From Escherichia coli 042 (GTDB lineage Bacteria > Pseudomonadota > Gammaproteobacteria > Enterobacterales > Enterobacteriaceae), in NCBI RefSeq assembly GCF_000027125.1, contig NC_017626.1: a stretch of DNA of 64,000 nt, one strand, 5' to 3'. Positions 28,583 to 43,164 of the stretch are shown piece by piece. A program made the translations under genes and the position numbers. Position 1 is the first letter of the stretch. Each line of letters starts with the position of its first letter. Below the pieces are notes generated by a model. That model did not search any database, was not told the DNA's origin, and saw nothing but the letters and a program-made list of their open reading frames with translations.

Positions 28583-28594
28583 CACGCTACCGCC
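28583..28594 (-). promoter_or_regulatory. ops element (GGCGGTAGCGTG) in the waaQ leader
   Basis: Plus strand reads CACGCTACCGCC, the exact reverse complement of the 12-nt ops RfaH-recruitment motif, about 50 bp upstream of the waaQ start. Confidence 0.8.
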
Positions 28595-28945
28595 CCAGGC
28601 TCAACAGCTACCTGAATACTGATACCGCACTGATATTGACGCGCTAGTGTATCACTTCTTTCGCGGCAATCCGACCCGAATGATTTTTAAGCACATTGTT
28701 GATTTTCAATAAAGAAATCAATCAAATAAAATCATTAGCAACTATATTCTTTTACTGTTGCTCTGCGATTCCTTCCTGCACGTACTGCAGAAATCAATGA
28801 ATCGCATAAAAATACAAAAAAAGTATAGATGTTCAGCAAGAATTGGCGGGTAAATTGCTATTTAAGTCAAAAACGGGAAAAGTAATGGTAAAGCCACAGC
28901 TAAATACATAGAATCCCCAGCACATCCATAAGTCAGCTATTTACT

Positions 28946-38053: not shown

Positions 38054-38077
38054 CGTGTACATAGAGGTGTACATAAT
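38054..38077. repeat. Left direct repeat (attL core)
   Basis: CGTGTACATAGAGGTGTACATAAT, 22 of 24 identical to the right repeat; itself a GTGTACATA tandem; more GTACA motifs follow at 38085–38108. Confidence 0.75.
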
Positions 38078-38134: not shown

Positions 38135-39394
38135 ATGCCAAAACTCACAGATATGCAGATCCGCGCATGGATAAAGGCGGGAGACAGATTTGATGGCAAG
38201 GCAGACGGCAACGGCCTTTATATTTGCTACCCAAAAAACTACACAGTCCCGTTCTGGCGATTCCGCTATAAGCTCGCAGGAAAGCAGCGGGCTATGGTTA
38301 TAGGCTCTTACTCCGAACTGTCACTATCAAAAGCCAGAGAAACAGCAAAAGAGCTGTCAGCCAGAGTTGCTCTTGGCTATGACGTAGCAGCAGAGAAACA
38401 GGAACGAAAAGCTGAAGCACTGGCAAAAATGGAGGCTGAGAAAAACGCCATGTGCGTTTCAGATCTGGCCGCCGAATACTTCGAGCGCCAGATACTTCCA
38501 AGATGGAAACATCCCGATATCCTTCGCCGGAGAATTGATAAGGATATTAACCCCTGCATTGGGCATATGAAGGTGGAGGACGTTAAGCCACGCCACATTG
38601 ACGACATGTTGAAAGGTATCGTTGACCGAGGAGCACCAACGATAGCAACAGATGTATTACGCTGGACACGCCGTATCTTTGACTATGGGATAAAACGCCA
38701 CGCTCTGGAGATAAACCCTTGTTCAGCGTTTGAAGTATCTGATGCTGGTGGTAAAGAGGTTTCCCGCGACCGTTGGCTAACTCGCGATGAGCTTATCAGG
38801 CTATTCGAAGCTATGCGCACCGCAAAAGGATTCAGCCGCCAGAACGAACTGACATTTAAGCTATTGCTGGCACTATGCGTTCGTAAGATGGAGTTATGCG
38901 CCGCACGATGGGAAGAGTTTGATTTAGATGGTGCGGTATGGCATTTGCCGGAAGAACGCAGCAAAAACGGAGACCCTATTGATATACCTCTACCTTCCCC
39001 AGCCGTTGAATGGTTGAGAGAGCTACACACCTTTTCATGTAATAGCGCATGGGTGCTTCCAGCCAGGAAGATGCAAAACAGAATGATCCCACATATTCAG
39101 GAAAGCACTTTGCCCGTAGCACTGGCTAAGGTTCGCGCCGAAATACCGGATGTGCCTAATTTCACGATTCACGACTTCCGACGCACCGCACGTACTCATT
39201 TAGCAGCGTTGGGTGTTGATCCTGTCGTGGCGGAACGATGCCTCAATCATCGCATTAAGGGCGTAGAGGGGATTTATAACCGCCATCAGTATTTTGATGA
39301 GCGTAAAGCAGCACTGGCACAGTGGGCTGATCTGCTGGTGGCACTGGAAAGCGGAAAAGACCACAACGTAACGCCTCTCAGAAGGGCGAACTAA
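38135..39394 (+). CDS. int: Tyrosine site-specific integrase (P4-like)
   Basis: Start taken at the internal Met (MPKLTDMQIRAWIKAG); C-terminal catalytic region with HDFRRTARTHL and GIYNRHQY motifs. Confidence 0.88.
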   Translation: MPKLTDMQIRAWIKAGDRFDGKADGNGLYICYPKNYTVPFWRFRYKLAGKQRAMVIGSYSELSLSKARETAKELSARVALGYDVAAEKQERKAEALAKMEAEKNAMCVSDLAAEYFERQILPRWKHPDILRRRIDKDINPCIGHMKVEDVKPRHIDDMLKGIVDRGAPTIATDVLRWTRRIFDYGIKRHALEINPCSAFEVSDAGGKEVSRDRWLTRDELIRLFEAMRTAKGFSRQNELTFKLLLALCVRKMELCAARWEEFDLDGAVWHLPEERSKNGDPIDIPLPSPAVEWLRELHTFSCNSAWVLPARKMQNRMIPHIQESTLPVALAKVRAEIPDVPNFTIHDFRRTARTHLAALGVDPVVAERCLNHRIKGVEGIYNRHQYFDERKAALAQWADLLVALESGKDHNVTPLRRAN

Positions 39395-39489
39395 CTGAAT
39401 AGATTGAGCCTAGCTCGACGGGGCGAAAAGCGGGAAGCCTTACCGCCTGGCTCAATCACAAAATAAGGCGCAGCGTAAAAGGTGACGCA

Positions 39490-40335
39490 ATGAAAAAACT
39501 ACCACCAAATCTCTTTTTCCGACTTAATAGAGCAGCAAATTTATTAGAAATAGAAGTCGATGATCTTCTACTTATGGGAGTATCAGGCTCTATATTTTTG
39601 AGCACAATAATTCACCAGTATGAAGGCGTACTCTATCAAGCGGGAAACTTGCCACCAGACCACGGCAGCAAAGACATAGAAAACTTATTATTTGGTTCTA
39701 TTATTTCTACTAGAGAAGATACCGAAAGATATCTAAATGAAGGTGTTTTCGATGGTATGAAGTGCTTAGCAAGTGGATTATGGCACGTTCCTAGTGATTT
39801 CATTGCTTCCCTTGCAGGGGTTAAGAGAGCCCCTGACATTCCACTCATATTCTCACCAGCATATATAAAAAAAGAACTAGATATCACATCAGGACGTTAC
39901 TTTTTCTACGATTTTCGCGAACATGATACCACCGTATCGTCTGTGGAAGATTTGTATATATCAAGACCGTGGGTTGAATATATAGCTGAAAGCATGGATA
40001 AAAATCAGCCAATACCCAGCATACTCCATTTGGGTTCACACGATCTTTATGAAAAGGAATTTAAAAACATAGAGCATGGAAATAGAGCACGACATAGCCT
40101 GAACCGTGAGAATAGCATTATGGCGTTGATTTATGTGAAACGGCACTATCCGGAAGAGTGCAAAGGGAAAAACGGGAAAGAAACCAACGAAGCGTGGGCA
40201 AACGCTACGATAGACCACTGGCCACATGTGGGTGGCGATTATGATGAACCATCTACAGATTATTTAAAGAAGATCATATCTGACATGGACAGATTGCCGG
40301 AAAAACGTACCACGGCAGGAAAGAAGAAATCATGA
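39490..40335 (+). CDS. Hypothetical protein, AT-rich orphan gene between int and alpA
   Basis: 281-aa ORF with markedly lower GC than its neighbours; no family recognised. Confidence 0.55.
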   Translation: MKKLPPNLFFRLNRAANLLEIEVDDLLLMGVSGSIFLSTIIHQYEGVLYQAGNLPPDHGSKDIENLLFGSIISTREDTERYLNEGVFDGMKCLASGLWHVPSDFIASLAGVKRAPDIPLIFSPAYIKKELDITSGRYFFYDFREHDTTVSSVEDLYISRPWVEYIAESMDKNQPIPSILHLGSHDLYEKEFKNIEHGNRARHSLNRENSIMALIYVKRHYPEECKGKNGKETNEAWANATIDHWPHVGGDYDEPSTDYLKKIISDMDRLPEKRTTAGKKKS

Positions 40336-40447
40336 TAATAAAATTTAGTATCGTGACAATAAAATTTACTGTAATTCACTTTTGAGCATGCACACCATTA
40401 AATACCCGTAACGAAGCAACAACTATCGCTAAGAGGTTACGGGAAGC

Positions 40448-40651
40448 ATGAACACCGACACGATTCCTACAAAAGGCTATATCAGACGCTTTCGCCTGGC
40501 TGAATTGCTGGGCGTTAGTGTATCCACCATCGACCGTAAAGTAAGAAACGGTTCACTACCACGTCCGGTAAAGCTGGGAGAAAAAATAACTGCGTTTGAT
40601 GCGGTTGAGATTCACAACTGGCTGGCAGAACGCCGCGGGAAGGTGGCCTGA
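40448..40651 (+). CDS. alpA: AlpA-family phage transcriptional regulator
   Basis: 67 aa with the AlpA-type HTH pattern (LGVSVSTIDRKVRNGSLPRPVKLGEK...W). Confidence 0.8.
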   Translation: MNTDTIPTKGYIRRFRLAELLGVSVSTIDRKVRNGSLPRPVKLGEKITAFDAVEIHNWLAERRGKVA

Positions 40652-41082
40652 TGGAAAAGAAAAACCGCCCATTACAGGCGGCTAATTCAGATACTCGCGT
40701 ATCTGATGTTACGCCCCTTACAAAATCCCTTCAAGCACCAAAGCGCACACCGAAAAAGCATCGTGCCAGAGTCTATATGCTGCGTACTGGTATAGAGGGA
40801 TGGACAGAAAATGACATTCTTCGCTACTGCCGCCTGTCTTCTGGTCGTAACTATGCAACAGAGTTAGAACGCCAGCTTGGAATCACTCTGGAGCGTATCG
40901 ACGAAAAGAATCCTGATGGTATCGGAACACACCTTCGCTACCGTTTCTCCTGCCGCGGTGATGTTCTGAAAGTGATCACTCATATTAACCATCTTGCGAA
41001 CATAAATGATCACAACGGACTTTCTCAGCAGGAAATTGCCGACATTCTGAAACTCTACCCGGACGCGTTTAACGCCGCCTAA
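40651..41082 (+). CDS. Hypothetical island protein
   Basis: 143-aa ORF whose start overlaps the alpA stop; basic N-terminus. Confidence 0.5.
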   Translation: MEKKNRPLQAANSDTRVSDVTPLTKSLQAPKRTPKKHRARVYMLRTGIEGWTENDILRYCRLSSGRNYATELERQLGITLERIDEKNPDGIGTHLRYRFSCRGDVLKVITHINHLANINDHNGLSQQEIADILKLYPDAFNAA

Positions 41083-42103: not shown

Positions 42104-43164
42104 CCGTCCAGAAGAAGATATTTTCACTGGCTGGTATGTCGCCAAAATCCAGCAATATGACAGCAAAGTCTGGCATTAATACAGCAGATGCAAGCAAAGT
42201 TTATCATTTTCTGGTGGTAGGAGCGGATGCCTTAACTATGTCAGAAATTACGGTCGATGGTGTTAGCGTTGAGAAGGTCGGCGGCTGCGCCAGAGAATTT
42301 CTGGTCGTAGATGGCTTTCTCTGCTCGCGTAGTGACTCCACAAAAACCTTCGTCCACACGCGCGACGTTAACGAAATGAGCGCGATGTATTGTGCATCTG
42401 GTGCTTCCAATAGTGAGTTTTCGGAGTCCATAAAAAAGAGCTTGCCGTTATGCGGCAACACGGTTTATGGTTATAAGGCACCTCATAAAACGGGTGCCGG
42501 GATTGGCGTCCTGGTAAATCGAATGGCGACATATGACGCGCCGAGCGTCTTTTTTTATGTCGTAGGTCTGACTCACCCATTTTTTGGGCGTTGGTGTATA
42601 ATCCAGCGCCTTTGTCAATCAATGGTGGCTCAGGCAGGGGCTTCTTCGGAAGCGCCGGTATCCATTCGAGCCGGTTACGCCAACCCTGTCTGGGCTACCA
42701 CCAGCGAAATTGGCGTTTCCGGTGGTAGCGTTACATGCTATCGAATGGAGGCTGCCACATGCTGGCTACTACCCCTACCCAAAAACCGCAATTTATCTGG
42801 ATTATCGCCGCAGTTCGCCGCGATTGCCCGACAATTACCGCCAAAATTCATCATATTGCTGCCGAGTCTGAACGCGATGCTCGCCGTTCTCTGGTGCGCG
42901 ATCACGTCTGCTTTTTTGCTGGTCGTATCCGCATGGAGGTGGCACATGATTAAAACCTACGATGTGCATATGGATCCCCTCGAACGCACAAGCCAGATCA
43001 TCACACTGACAGAAGTGATTAACGACATTCTGGTGAGCAACTCTCCCTCACGAGACGAAAGACTGAAGGCGTTACTCGCGATATTGGATCTCGCCGTTCG
43101 TGACGTTCATTTCCTGCTGGAAGGTGGCGAAATGCCAGGAAAAACGGGGGCAACCAATGAATAA
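42097..43164 (+). CDS. Hypothetical island protein; gene boundaries uncertain, possibly two genes read through in one frame
   Basis: 355-codon open frame with an ATGCTAA start overlap; its middle is overlapped by a more gene-like ORF in another frame and an internal ATG at 42946 overlaps that ORF's stop. Confidence 0.35.
42759..42953 (+). CDS. Small protein, possibly Icd-like cell-division inhibitor family
   Basis: [22 protein letters not shown]... in an alternative frame inside the 355-codon ORF; resemblance to Icd-like proteins is from memory. Confidence 0.4.
   Translation: MLATTPTQKPQFIWIIAAVRRDCPTITAKIHHIAAESERDARRSLVRDHVCFFAGRIRMEVAHD

What the first reader, a model, noticed from the sequence alone, without database searches (positions are those of the whole stretch)
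39490..40335. AT-rich orphan gene between integrase and alpA, a candidate single-gene anti-phage or exclusion function
This 281-aa ORF is visibly lower in GC than the rest of the island and the chromosome, has no recognisable motifs, and sits directly after the integrase, where P4-like and PICI-like elements often carry variable cargo. PICIs usually place a divergent repressor here; this gene is co-directional and too large for a typical Stl-like repressor.
Basis: inference. Interest (0 to 1): 0.6.

Follow-up and report, generated by a model that had tools for sequence, protein, structure and literature searches.

The report
Swappable regulator-like gene before satellite alpA
The low-GC gene between the integrase and alpA of this 20-kb E. 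coli phage satellite is real and sits in a swappable one-gene slot, but it looks more like a DNA-binding switch protein that travels with its own binding sites beside the alpA promoter than like a conventional anti-phage weapon.

Summary
ORF 39490-40335 (+) encodes 281 aa, has a good ribosome-binding site and 39.8% GC, against about 50% for neighbouring island genes.

It lies in a ~19.9-kb satellite related to the characterised island EcCIMP1, inserted between yicC and dinD.

The int-alpA interval is a one-gene swap slot with sharp junctions. About 318 of 5,426 E. coli genomes carry this integrase. At least seven alternative cassettes occupy the slot, and X is in 36-37 genomes.

X is not an orphan. 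It belongs to an unnamed family of ~300-aa proteins: 46 sequence-level representatives and 208 AlphaFold-database clusters, all uncharacterised. In all 15 contexts examined the family gene lies directly upstream of an alpA-like gene. An integrase lay directly upstream wherever the sequence reached that far.

The architecture is an excisionase/MerR-like winged helix, a hypervariable middle and a basic winged-helix-like C-terminal domain. No enzymatic domain and no match to known defence proteins was found.

Most family cassettes carry allele-specific tandem repeats about 21 nt apart, between the stop codon and the putative alpA promoter.

Best reading (about 0.45): a cassette-encoded DNA-binding regulator that gates alpA. 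Single-gene defence or exclusion (about 0.3) remains untested.

The parts
38054..38077 (.). Left attachment repeat (attL) of the island, CGTGTACATAGAGGTGTACATAAT. The partner is at 57959-57982.
   Evidence: The two copies share a 12-nt exact core, GGTGTACATAAT, within a 24-nt imperfect direct repeat. The island lies between yicC and dinD.
38135..39394 (+). P4-type tyrosine integrase of the satellite.
   Evidence: It matches PHROG 1 integrase at E 2e-63 and is annotated as a tyrosine recombinase. It is present in about 318 of 5,426 E. coli genomes.
39403..39469 (+). int-alpA RNA motif (Rfam RF02996). It forms the conserved left flank of the slot.
   Evidence: Score 60.6 bits against a gathering threshold of 35.8. 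The predicted fold is -32.4 kcal/mol, z -2.3. The same motif precedes different cassettes in L007, L009, L012, L013, L015, L017, L021, L023 and L026.
39490..40335 (+). Gene X, 281 aa, the finding itself. Residues 1-48 form an acidic excisionase/MerR-like winged helix. Residues 49-150 are the hypervariable middle. Residues 151-172 form the conserved 'DLYISR' helix. Residues 193-272 form a basic winged-helix-like domain, followed by the tail RTTAGKKKS.
39494..40405 (.). Exchangeable cassette: the X gene plus its 3' flank, including the putative alpA promoter.
   Evidence: Homology to loci carrying other slot genes stops at 39375-39382 or 39494 on the left. It resumes at 40402-40407 or 40463 on the right.
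40329..40373 (.). Two tandem operator-like units, 21 nt apart. Each is an imperfect palindrome of the form GATAnTAAA-n-TTTAnTATC (40334-40352 and 40355-40373). The first overlaps the stop codon of X.
   Evidence: Direct repeat of 19 nt with 21-nt spacing. Autocorrelation gives 14 of 16 matches at lag 21, reached by 0 of 200 shuffles. The palindrome is conserved in X-subfamily cassettes of other genera and absent from cassettes that sit next to the identical AlpA protein. As RNA the region is not significantly structured, z -0.95.
40375..40404 (+). Putative weak alpA promoter (TTCACT, 17-18 nt spacer, TTAAAT/TAAATA), located inside the cassette.
   Evidence: Read from the sequence. The layout is conserved in X-subfamily cassettes. 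The consensus promoter scan did not call it, so this is an inference.
40405..40443 (+). Conserved hairpin CCCGTAAC-N23-GUUACGGG around the alpA ribosome-binding site. It forms the right flank of the slot.
   Evidence: Inverted repeat found in all loci examined. Predicted fold -13.6 kcal/mol, z -2.6. L017 carries a compensatory variant, CCTGTCATG/CATGACAGG.
40448..40651 (+). alpA, encoding the activator and master switch of Gram-negative phage-inducible islands.
   Evidence: It matches PHROG 66/597 and is annotated as a helix-turn-helix regulator. Its role is described in PMC6092414 and PMC11773190.
57959..57982 (.). Right attachment repeat (attR), CGTGTACATAAGGGTGTACATAAT.
   Evidence: Found by direct sequence comparison with the left repeat. 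dinD follows it.

Best explanation
**Proposal.** X is the protein half of a self-contained, exchangeable regulatory cassette of a phage satellite related to EcCIMP1.

**Shown**
- X is a non-enzymatic protein with two winged-helix-type domains.
- Its ends are conserved and its middle is hypervariable.
- It belongs to a family found only directly upstream of alpA in such satellites, just after the integrase wherever the upstream sequence was available.
- Each cassette brings the gene together with the DNA up to the alpA 5' leader.
- That DNA contains allele-specific tandem repeats or palindromes spaced two helical turns apart.

**Inferred**
- X is made together with int while the island is integrated. 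No terminator separates the two genes.
- X binds as a dimer or tetramer to the two sites at 40334-40373, probably through its basic C-terminal domain.
- Binding there sets the activity of the weak alpA promoter, either holding it off or making it responsive.
- The variable middle domain is the part that could receive a signal from a phage protein. Swapping cassettes would then change which phage switches the island on.
- This would make X a functional analogue of the Stl/Rpr repressors of Gram-positive islands.
For: - **No enzymatic domain.** None was found by any sequence or fold search.
- **Fixed position.**
  - All 15 family contexts have the gene directly upstream of an alpA-like gene.
  - An integrase was found just upstream in all but the short contig L029; in L030 this is inferred from a cut 251-aa upstream ORF that was never identified.
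  - The position holds even where the integrase is only 25-30% identical and the replication module differs.
  - Sources.
- **Modular conservation.** Identity to X is N 35%, middle 10% and C 37% across the family. Within the subfamily it is 60%, 30% and 70%.
- **Promoter inside the cassette.** The cassette junctions place the alpA promoter region within the swapped segment.
- **Conserved, cassette-specific sites.** The tandem palindromic units with 21-nt phasing are conserved in X-subfamily cassettes of E. coli, Enterobacter and Leclercia, where the proteins are only 37-56% identical. They are absent from cassettes flanked by the identical AlpA protein WP_001090781.1, so they are not AlpA-specific.
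- **Same phasing in unrelated cassettes.** Unrelated repeat sequences with 21-22-nt phasing occur in other family cassettes (L019, L028, L026). The best lag is 20-22 nt in 9 of 15 family cassettes, and five are individually significant against shuffles.
- **Not a generic hotspot.** All seven E. coli cassettes are single genes of 216-321 aa, and none is a known defence gene.
- **An open question it would answer.** The literature states that a global repressor of Gram-negative islands has not been identified and that the helper signal acting on alpA is unknown (PMC6092414).
Against: - No experiment supports this. DNA binding by X is inferred, not shown.
- EcCIMP1 has the same backbone downstream of alpA but a different int/alpA module. 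It has no X-family gene in the slot and is still helper-inducible and mobilisable (PMC11773190).
- With the same int and alpA, the slot can hold unrelated proteins: L009, L010 (PHROG 30524) and L012 (DUF6387). No specific X-AlpA partnership is therefore required.
- The N-terminal winged helix is acidic across the family, with median net charge -3. That is atypical for a DNA-reading head.
- The L007/L008/L023 subtype has GC-rich terminators instead of 21-nt repeats.
- The promoter is non-canonical and was not called by the scan.
- The two X alleles differ by 12 non-synonymous and 4 synonymous changes, dN/dS 0.8. That gives no sign of strong recent purifying selection.
- The repeats could be bound by a phage or host factor rather than by X.
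Confidence: 0.45

Rival explanations
1. X is accessory cargo: a single-gene anti-phage or exclusion factor, or a factor that interferes with the helper phage. It would be expressed from the integrated island. The variable middle domain would recognise a phage component, and the protein would block the phage by binding its protein or DNA rather than by an enzymatic activity.
For: - The slot is variable, with sharp junctions and at least seven cassettes.
- The X cassette has transferred between diverged backbones.
- X has low GC and a sporadic distribution, 36-37 of 5,426 E. coli genomes.
- It is dispensable for the satellite life cycle, judging by EcCIMP1 (PMC11773190).
- EcCIMP1 confers an unexplained superinfection immunity with no known defence system (PMC11773190).
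- In P4-like satellites, 6 of 8 randomly chosen unknown hotspot loci protected against phages (bioRxiv 10.64898/2026.02.27.708500).
Against: - None of the 16 slot or family proteins gives a credible PADLOC match. The only hit, PDC-S31 at E 0.002 in L007, was not reproduced in 10 other members.
- There is no effector or enzymatic domain.
- Cassettes are always one gene of similar size, and about half belong to one family. Known satellite hotspots hold many unrelated and multi-gene systems.
- Adjacency to alpA is strict across 15 contexts.
- This reading does not explain the cassette-specific phased repeats at the alpA promoter.
- According to the 2026 preprint, which cites earlier work, the defence position reported for such islands is between the att site and int, not between int and alpA.
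Confidence: 0.3
2. X is a DNA- or protein-binding accessory factor with another role. It could modulate host or neighbouring-element gene expression, as the PerC-like gene of the same island type does. Alternatively it could act as a cofactor of Int or AlpA in excision directionality.
For: - X has winged-helix domains.
- The N-terminal fold also resembles CbpM and DafA, which are MerR-like proteins that bind other proteins rather than DNA. This fits its acidic charge.
- X lies next to int and alpA.
- EcCIMP1 carries a regulator that acts on host virulence genes (PMC11773190).
Against: - The same int and alpA work with unrelated slot genes, so a dedicated cofactor is unlikely.
- This reading gives no reason for operator-like repeats inside the cassette.
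- No host target is known.
Confidence: 0.15
3. X is a decaying or functionless ORF carried along in a recombination-prone spacer.
For: The two E. coli alleles differ by 12 non-synonymous and 4 synonymous changes, dN/dS 0.8. No function is known.
Against: - Full-length intact homologues at 37-56% identity occur in the same position in other genera, with N- and C-terminal domains 60-70% conserved.
- The structure prediction is confident.
- The ribosome-binding site is good.
- A chance open frame of this length has P about 3e-9.
Confidence: 0.03

Closest known systems
Stl/Rpr master repressors of SaPIs and other Gram-positive phage-inducible chromosomal islands
   Same: - Both are a single gene of similar size next to int and next to the island's switch gene.
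- Both have a DNA-binding-type N-terminal domain followed by a highly divergent region.
- Both exist as many mutually dissimilar alleles among otherwise similar islands.
- Both have operator-like sites in the adjacent control region.
   Different: - There is no sequence homology.
- The fold is an excisionase/MerR-type winged helix, not an Xre/cI-type helix-turn-helix.
- X is transcribed in the same direction as alpA, not divergently.
- Binding, repression and relief by a phage protein are all untested.
- Gram-negative islands are described as using the activator AlpA with no known repressor (PMC6092414).
AlpA / Vis / Xis excisionase-like proteins (Pfam HTH_17, Phage_AlpA) and MerR-family regulators
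   Different: - X is four times larger than AlpA.
- Its N-terminal domain is acidic, whereas AlpA has pI 10.6.
- It gives no Pfam match even at E 10.
- It lacks the MerR coiled-coil and effector domain.
- It carries a second, unrelated winged-helix-like domain.
EcCIMP1, a phage-inducible chromosomal island of E. coli MP1 (PMC11773190)
   Same: - The backbone from the end of alpA onward is about 98% identical: the 143-aa gene, antA/B, DUF4222, ash, isrK/C4/icd and the primase.
- The size is similar, about 19.9 kb against 19,963 bp.
- Both have P22-type ejection-protein genes.
- Sources.
   Different: - EcCIMP1 has a different integrase and att site (tRNA-Thr), and a different alpA allele.
- Its slot holds only a 427-nt stretch with a tiny ORF.
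- It has no X-family gene and no int-alpA RNA.
Defence hotspots of phage satellites (P4-like: between int and psu; phage-inducible islands: between att and int)
   Same: Both are variable segments beside the integrase of a satellite, with conserved flanks and rapid turnover by recombination.
   Different: - The position differs: here it is int-alpA.
- The slot always holds one gene of 216-321 aa.
- None of the seven cassettes is a recognised defence system.
- About half the cassettes belong to one family.
- The cassettes include the promoter region of the master regulator.
yfjH of the E. coli K-12 cryptic prophage CP4-57
   Same: It is a 318-aa gene of unknown function occupying the same interval between a P4-type integrase (intA) and alpA.
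   Different: It lies on the opposite strand, divergent from alpA. Profile comparison detects no homology to the X family.

Membership tests
Excisionase-like HTH_17 / Phage_AlpA family | Significant match to Pfam PF12728 or PF05930 | tested here: not met
   X has no Pfam match even at E 10. Only 1 of 42 family members reaches E 0.015 for HTH_17.
Excisionase-like HTH_17 / Phage_AlpA family | Beta-alpha-alpha-beta winged-helix fold | tested here: inconclusive
Excisionase-like HTH_17 / Phage_AlpA family | Small basic DNA-binding protein | tested here: not met
   X has 281 aa and pI 5.8. Its N-terminal domain has net charge -1, and the family median is -3. AlpA has pI 10.6.
MerR-family transcription regulators | N-terminal winged helix, then a coiled-coil dimerisation helix and a C-terminal effector domain, with a Pfam MerR match | tested here: not met
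Stl/Rpr-type master repressor of phage-inducible islands | Gene next to int and divergent from the island's early or switch operon | tested here: not met
   X is adjacent to int and alpA but co-directional with both.
Stl/Rpr-type master repressor of phage-inducible islands | Binds operators in the control region of the switch operon | not testable with these tools
   Candidate operators exist: tandem palindromes at 40334-40373 with 21-nt phasing, specific to the cassette. Binding has not been shown.
Stl/Rpr-type master repressor of phage-inducible islands | Repression relieved by a specific helper-phage protein | not testable with these tools
   The only supporting observation is the hypervariable middle domain, 10% identity across the family.
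Known anti-phage defence systems (PADLOC-DB v2) | Match to a defence-protein model | tested here: not met
   X has no hit at E up to 1. Fifteen other slot or family proteins gave only one weak, unreproduced hit.
Known anti-phage defence systems (PADLOC-DB v2) | Protection against phage infection | not testable with these tools
   This requires a phage challenge experiment.
Phage-inducible chromosomal island, EcCIMP1-like (applies to the island, not to X) | An int, alpA and primase module of about 20 kb, flanked by att repeats and lacking phage capsid, tail and lysis genes | tested here: met
   Annotation, att repeats, and a backbone about 98% identical to EcCIMP1.
Phage-inducible chromosomal island, EcCIMP1-like (applies to the island, not to X) | Induction and packaging by a helper phage | not testable with these tools
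   This has been shown only for EcCIMP1 with phage Kapi1 (PMC11773190). An IS66 insertion and an ash pseudogene in this copy may impair it.
int-alpA RNA (Rfam RF02996), flanking element | Covariance-model score above the gathering threshold | tested here: met
   60.6 bits against 35.8 at 39403-39469 (+).

The most novel reading that the evidence does not exclude
The X family may be the missing helper-sensing regulator of AlpA-type satellites in Gram-negative bacteria.

- Each allele would bind its own tandem operators beside the alpA promoter.
- The hypervariable middle domain would be the receptor for a particular helper-phage protein.
- Exchange of the whole cassette (gene, operators and promoter) between islands would re-target a satellite to a new helper.

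That would be a second, independently evolved solution to the problem Stl solves in staphylococcal islands.
Probability: 0.3. Interest if true: 0.8.

Novelty: new variant of a known kind. Interest (0 to 1): 0.6.

Why it matters
How Gram-negative phage-inducible islands stay silent, and how a helper phage switches on alpA, has been open since these islands were described in 2018 (PMC6092414). A protein family that always sits directly upstream of alpA and travels with its own phased binding-site-like repeats and the alpA promoter is a concrete candidate for that switch. It can be tested directly, and it would explain helper specificity and its rapid change.

If X is instead a defence or exclusion gene, it would define a new non-enzymatic family and a new satellite hotspot. 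Either way, about 300 E. coli genomes and many other enterobacteria carry a gene of this slot with no annotation. The family deserves a name and a profile model.

Tried and rejected
- **Sequence libraries.** Pfam, NCBIfam, PHROGs, PADLOC and PDB sequences gave nothing for X, for the 42-member alignment or for the C-terminal domain.
- **PDC-S31.** The weak PADLOC hit in the L007 protein (E 0.002) was checked in 10 other members and not reproduced, so I treat it as spurious.
- **'PM1773 family'.** This annotation belongs to the 143-aa gene after alpA, not to the slot.
- **Species-representative genomes.** One scan for the X subfamily found no relative. A second, for the sister subfamily, found two. 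A systematic context census from that collection was therefore not possible.
- **Viral and phage collections.** The viral-contig scan found two loci. tblastn against 50,697 phage genomes found none.
- **Terminator reading.** I considered that the AT-rich palindromes after X are a terminator. I rejected this because the RNA fold is weak (-6.6 kcal/mol, z -0.95), the palindrome has a 1-nt centre, and no U-run follows. In L007, L008 and L023, by contrast, the hairpins are GC-rich with T-runs and are probably terminators.
- **AlpA-site reading.** I considered that the repeats are AlpA sites. I rejected this for the window type because L007 has the identical AlpA protein and lacks them.
- **LexA boxes.** I considered this for the TACTG/CAGTA palindromes of L007 and L008. 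The spacing is wrong.
- **Small terminase.** I considered a small-terminase role because of the shared N-terminal fold. The rest of the model does not fit, and EcCIMP1 is packaged without such a gene.
- **Other slot genes.** yfjH, L009, L010 and L012 were tested for homology to the family, and none was detected.
Full report
**1. The observation**

- The ORF at 39490-40335 (+) is present as described: ATG start, 281 codons and a stop.
- An AAGGTG ribosome-binding site lies at 39478-39483.
- At its own base composition, a 281-codon open frame has a chance probability of about 3e-9 per start.
- Its GC content is 0.398, with 0.351 at third codon positions. Comparison values are int 0.496, alpA 0.505, primase 0.512, yicC 0.539 and the whole window 0.485.
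- The window contains no tRNA gene.

**2. The setting**

- The window is E. coli chromosome: waa genes, then slmA, pyrE, rph and yicC. It is 100% identical to strain ECONIH5 over the finding.
- Directly after yicC comes an island with this gene order:
  - P4-type integrase, X, alpA and a 143-aa gene;
  - antA/B, DUF4222 and an ash pseudogene;
  - an Icd-like gene, four small genes and a TOPRIM/DUF927 primase;
  - P22-type 'DNA ejection' genes, an IS66 element and a PerC-like gene.
- The island ends before dinD.
- A 24-nt imperfect direct repeat, with the 12-nt exact core GGTGTACATAAT, lies at 38054-38077 and 57959-57982. This delimits about 19.9 kb.
- From the end of alpA onward the backbone is about 98% identical to EcCIMP1. 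EcCIMP1 is an experimentally verified 19,963-bp phage-inducible island of E. coli MP1, mobilised by the P22-like phage Kapi1 (PMC11773190).
- EcCIMP1 has a different integrase, a different att site (tRNA-Thr) and a different alpA allele. Between its int and alpA lie only 427 nt with a tiny ORF.

**3. The slot is variable**

Census:
- Sequence similar to this integrase occurs in about 318 of 5,426 complete E. coli genomes.
- X occurs in only 36-37 of them.
- Behind int and alpA sequences that are about 99% identical to ours, other single genes occupy the interval:

| Cassette | Slot protein | E. coli genomes |
|---|---|---|
| X | 281 aa | 36-37 |
| L007 type | 321 aa | 76 |
| L008/L014 type | 316 aa | 41 |
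| L009 type | 293 aa | 21 |
| L010/L011 type | 216 aa (PHROG 30524), then 470 nt non-coding | 110 |
| L012 type | 283 aa (DUF6387) | 3 |
| L026 type | 307 aa | not counted |

Junctions and movement:
- The junctions are sharp. Similarity to the window stops at 39375-39382 (the end of int) or at 39494 (four bases into the start codon). It resumes at 40402-40407 or at 40463.
- In L013 the X gene is 98.1% identical in nucleotides, while alpA is 92% and the whole region 86.7%. The cassette has therefore moved between diverged backbones.

**4. X is not an orphan**

Size and position of the family:
- A word-indexed search of 5.8 billion proteins found only 9 clusters, all from Enterobacteriaceae.
- An exhaustive HMMER scan of 1.84 billion representatives found 46 proteins at E below 1e-3. 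Most are about 300 aa.
- Foldseek against the clustered AlphaFold database found 208 matches at E below 1e-3. All are 'uncharacterized protein' of 270-390 aa from Enterobacterales, Aeromonas and Vibrio.
- Three E. coli cassettes (L007, L008, L026) belong to this family. L009, L010, L012 and K-12 yfjH do not.
- I examined the window plus 14 loci from E. coli, Enterobacter, Leclercia, Intestinirhabdus, metagenomes and viral contigs.
  - In every one the family gene lies directly upstream of a small alpA-like gene, on the same strand.
  - A tyrosine integrase was detected directly upstream wherever the sequence reached that far. In L030 the upstream 251-aa cut ORF is only presumed to be int, and the short contig L029 has no called upstream gene.
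  - The arrangement holds even where the integrase is only 25-30% identical or the replication module is D5-type.
  - Sources.

Absences:
- The family is absent from 50,697 phage genomes.
- The X subfamily is absent from the 100,044 species-representative genomes.

**5. Architecture**

| Region | Mean identity to X, whole family | Mean identity to X, X subfamily |
|---|---|---|
| N-terminal domain | 35% | 60% |
| Middle (residues 49-150) | 10% | 30% |
| C-terminal domain | 37% | 70% |

- The ends are conserved and the middle is hypervariable.
- AlphaFold2 with the 42-sequence alignment gives mean pLDDT 83.7.
- **N-terminal domain.**
  - Residues 1-48 (pLDDT above 92) form beta-alpha-alpha-beta.
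- **C-terminal domain.**
  - Modelled alone it has pLDDT 87.9.
- These scores are modest. They support fold class, not family membership.
- No catalytic domain is seen anywhere.
- The N-terminal domain is acidic across the family, with median net charge -3. The C-terminal domain is basic, with median +4 and the tail RTTAGKKKS.

**6. What the flanks and the cassette carry**

- **Left flank.** This is a known structured RNA motif, int-alpA RNA (Rfam RF02996), at 39403-39469 with 60.6 bits. It precedes cassettes of different families. L009 has a compensatory stem variant.
- **Right flank.** This is a hairpin, CCCGTAAC-N23-GTTACGGG, at 40405-40443.
  - It encloses the alpA ribosome-binding site.
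  - It is conserved in all loci examined, with a compensatory variant in L017.
- **Promoter.** Everything between the flanks varies, including the putative and non-canonical alpA promoter TTCACT-17/18-TTAAAT/TAAATA at 40375-40404. The consensus scan did not call this promoter.
- **Repeats in the X cassette.**
  - The 45 nt from the stop codon to the -35 region consist of two 19-nt units spaced 21 nt apart. Each is an imperfect palindrome of the form GATAnTAAA-n-TTTAnTATC (40334-40352 and 40355-40373).
  - The arrangement and phasing are conserved in X-subfamily cassettes from other genera, where the proteins are only 37-56% identical.
  - In 350 kb of fetched sequence, zero-mismatch copies of the palindrome occur only at the stop codon of X or of its 56% homologue (window/L001, L013, L021). 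The looser copies in L002-L006 also lie at X-subfamily cassettes.
- **Not AlpA sites.** It is absent from L007, whose AlpA protein is identical to ours (WP_001090781.1). The repeats therefore go with the cassette, not with AlpA.
- **Not a terminator.** As RNA the region is not significantly structured, z -0.95.
- **Other family cassettes.**
  - Some carry different repeat sequences with the same phasing: L019 at 22 nt (13 of 13 identical), L028 at 21 nt and L026 at 21 nt.
  - In an autocorrelation test over lags 10-35, the best lag was 20-22 nt in 9 of 15 family cassettes.
  - Five were individually significant against shuffles: window, L021, L002, L019 and L028.
  - The L007/L008/L023 subtype instead has GC-rich terminator hairpins followed by other short palindromes.

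**7. Interpretation**

The data fit a sequence-specific DNA-binding protein that travels with its own tandem sites next to the promoter of the island's master activator.

This is the layout of an immunity or induction-specificity module. Functionally it recalls the Stl/Rpr repressors of Gram-positive islands, which are also single genes beside int. They have a DNA-binding head and strongly divergent bodies that sense helper proteins.

For Gram-negative islands the literature says a global repressor has not been identified and the helper signal for alpA is unknown (PMC6092414). I therefore rank 'cassette-encoded regulator gating alpA' first, at about 0.45.

Shown:
- the fold classes;
- the modular conservation;
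- the fixed position;
- the cassette junctions;
- the phased allele-specific repeats.

Inferred:
- that X binds the repeats;
- the direction of the effect on alpA;
- that the middle domain senses a phage protein.

**8. Counter-evidence and rivals**

- EcCIMP1 works without such a gene (PMC11773190).
- Unrelated proteins can sit in the slot next to the same int and alpA.
- The N-terminal winged helix is acidic.
- Recent X alleles show dN/dS 0.8, based on only 16 changes.

These points keep alive the reading that the slot carries dispensable accessory cargo.
- In its favour are the turnover, the low GC, the unexplained superinfection immunity of EcCIMP1, and the high success rate of unknown genes from P4 hotspots (bioRxiv 10.64898/2026.02.27.708500).
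- Against it:
  - none of 16 slot or family proteins gives a credible match to a defence model;
  - there is no effector domain;
  - the slot always holds one gene of similar size;
  - the phased repeats remain unexplained.

A different accessory or cofactor role gets about 0.15. A functionless ORF gets about 0.03.

**9. Novelty and score**

- The island type, alpA, the int-alpA RNA and satellite hotspots are all known.
- New here are three things: an unnamed protein family tied to the position directly upstream of alpA, the one-gene swap slot that includes the alpA promoter, and the cassette-specific phased repeats.
- I class this as a new variant of a known kind, namely a satellite regulatory or specificity module.
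- Interest is 0.6. The finding is entirely computational, but it turns an open question about induction of Gram-negative satellites into a set of simple experiments.

Noticed in passing
window 39403-39469 (+): A known structured RNA motif of unknown function, int-alpA RNA (Rfam RF02996, 60.6 bits), ends 20 nt before the X start codon. It is the conserved left junction of the swap slot and precedes cassettes of unrelated families. L009 shows a compensatory stem change (TTGAGCC/GGCTCAA to CCGGAAC/GTTCCGG).
   Followed up: partly
window 40405-40443 (+): A conserved hairpin, CCCGTAAC-N23-GTTACGGG, encloses the alpA ribosome-binding site. It is present in all loci examined, with variable loop length and a compensatory variant in L017. 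If the alpA promoter starts transcription inside the left arm, only read-through transcripts from int/X would hide the ribosome-binding site. A DNA operator for AlpA is an alternative reading.
   Followed up: partly
window 42478-42555 and 42618-42705 (+): isrK (67 bits) and C4 antisense RNA (79.5 bits) lie inside the region annotated as an ash pseudogene, just upstream of the Icd-like gene. This is a P1/P7-type C4-icd-ant immunity module carried by the satellite. The same pair occurs in EcCIMP1 and in the Enterobacter and Leclercia islands.
   Followed up: partly
window 38054-38077 and 57959-57982: Imperfect 24-nt direct repeats (CGTGTACATArrGGTGTACATAAT) flank the island between yicC and dinD. 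The integration site is not a tRNA gene. Island length is about 19.9 kb, nearly the same as EcCIMP1.
   Followed up: partly
window about 47.7-56.5 kb (L001 24340-33051): The distal half of the island carries genes annotated 'phage DNA ejection protein' (488 aa) and a 701-aa hypothetical protein. This points to a P22-like helper, as for EcCIMP1 with Kapi1. It also carries an IS66 insertion and a PerC-family regulator. The IS66 element and the ash pseudogene may mean this copy is no longer fully mobile.
   Followed up: no
L020 2645-3601 (-), E. coli K-12 CP4-57: In K-12 the equivalent intA-alpA interval holds yfjH (318 aa, unknown function) on the opposite strand, divergent from alpA as stl is in staphylococcal islands. 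Profile comparison detects no homology to the X family.
   Followed up: partly
window 40651-41082 (+): The 143-aa gene that overlaps the alpA stop codon is conserved in all related islands. In some genomes it is annotated 'PM1773 family protein'. It had no hit in PHROGs or NCBIfam here, and its function is unknown.
   Followed up: no
window 28583-28621 (-): A JUMPstart element (Rfam RF01707, 55 bits) lies upstream of the waa lipopolysaccharide core operon. This is an ordinary feature.
   Followed up: no
L019 9342-9361 and L002 19897-20223: Related islands carry recognisable conflict cargo at their distal end, not in the int-alpA slot. L019 has a BrxC/PglY-like gene (BREX) and the Leclercia island has an Imm_superinfect gene.
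   Followed up: no
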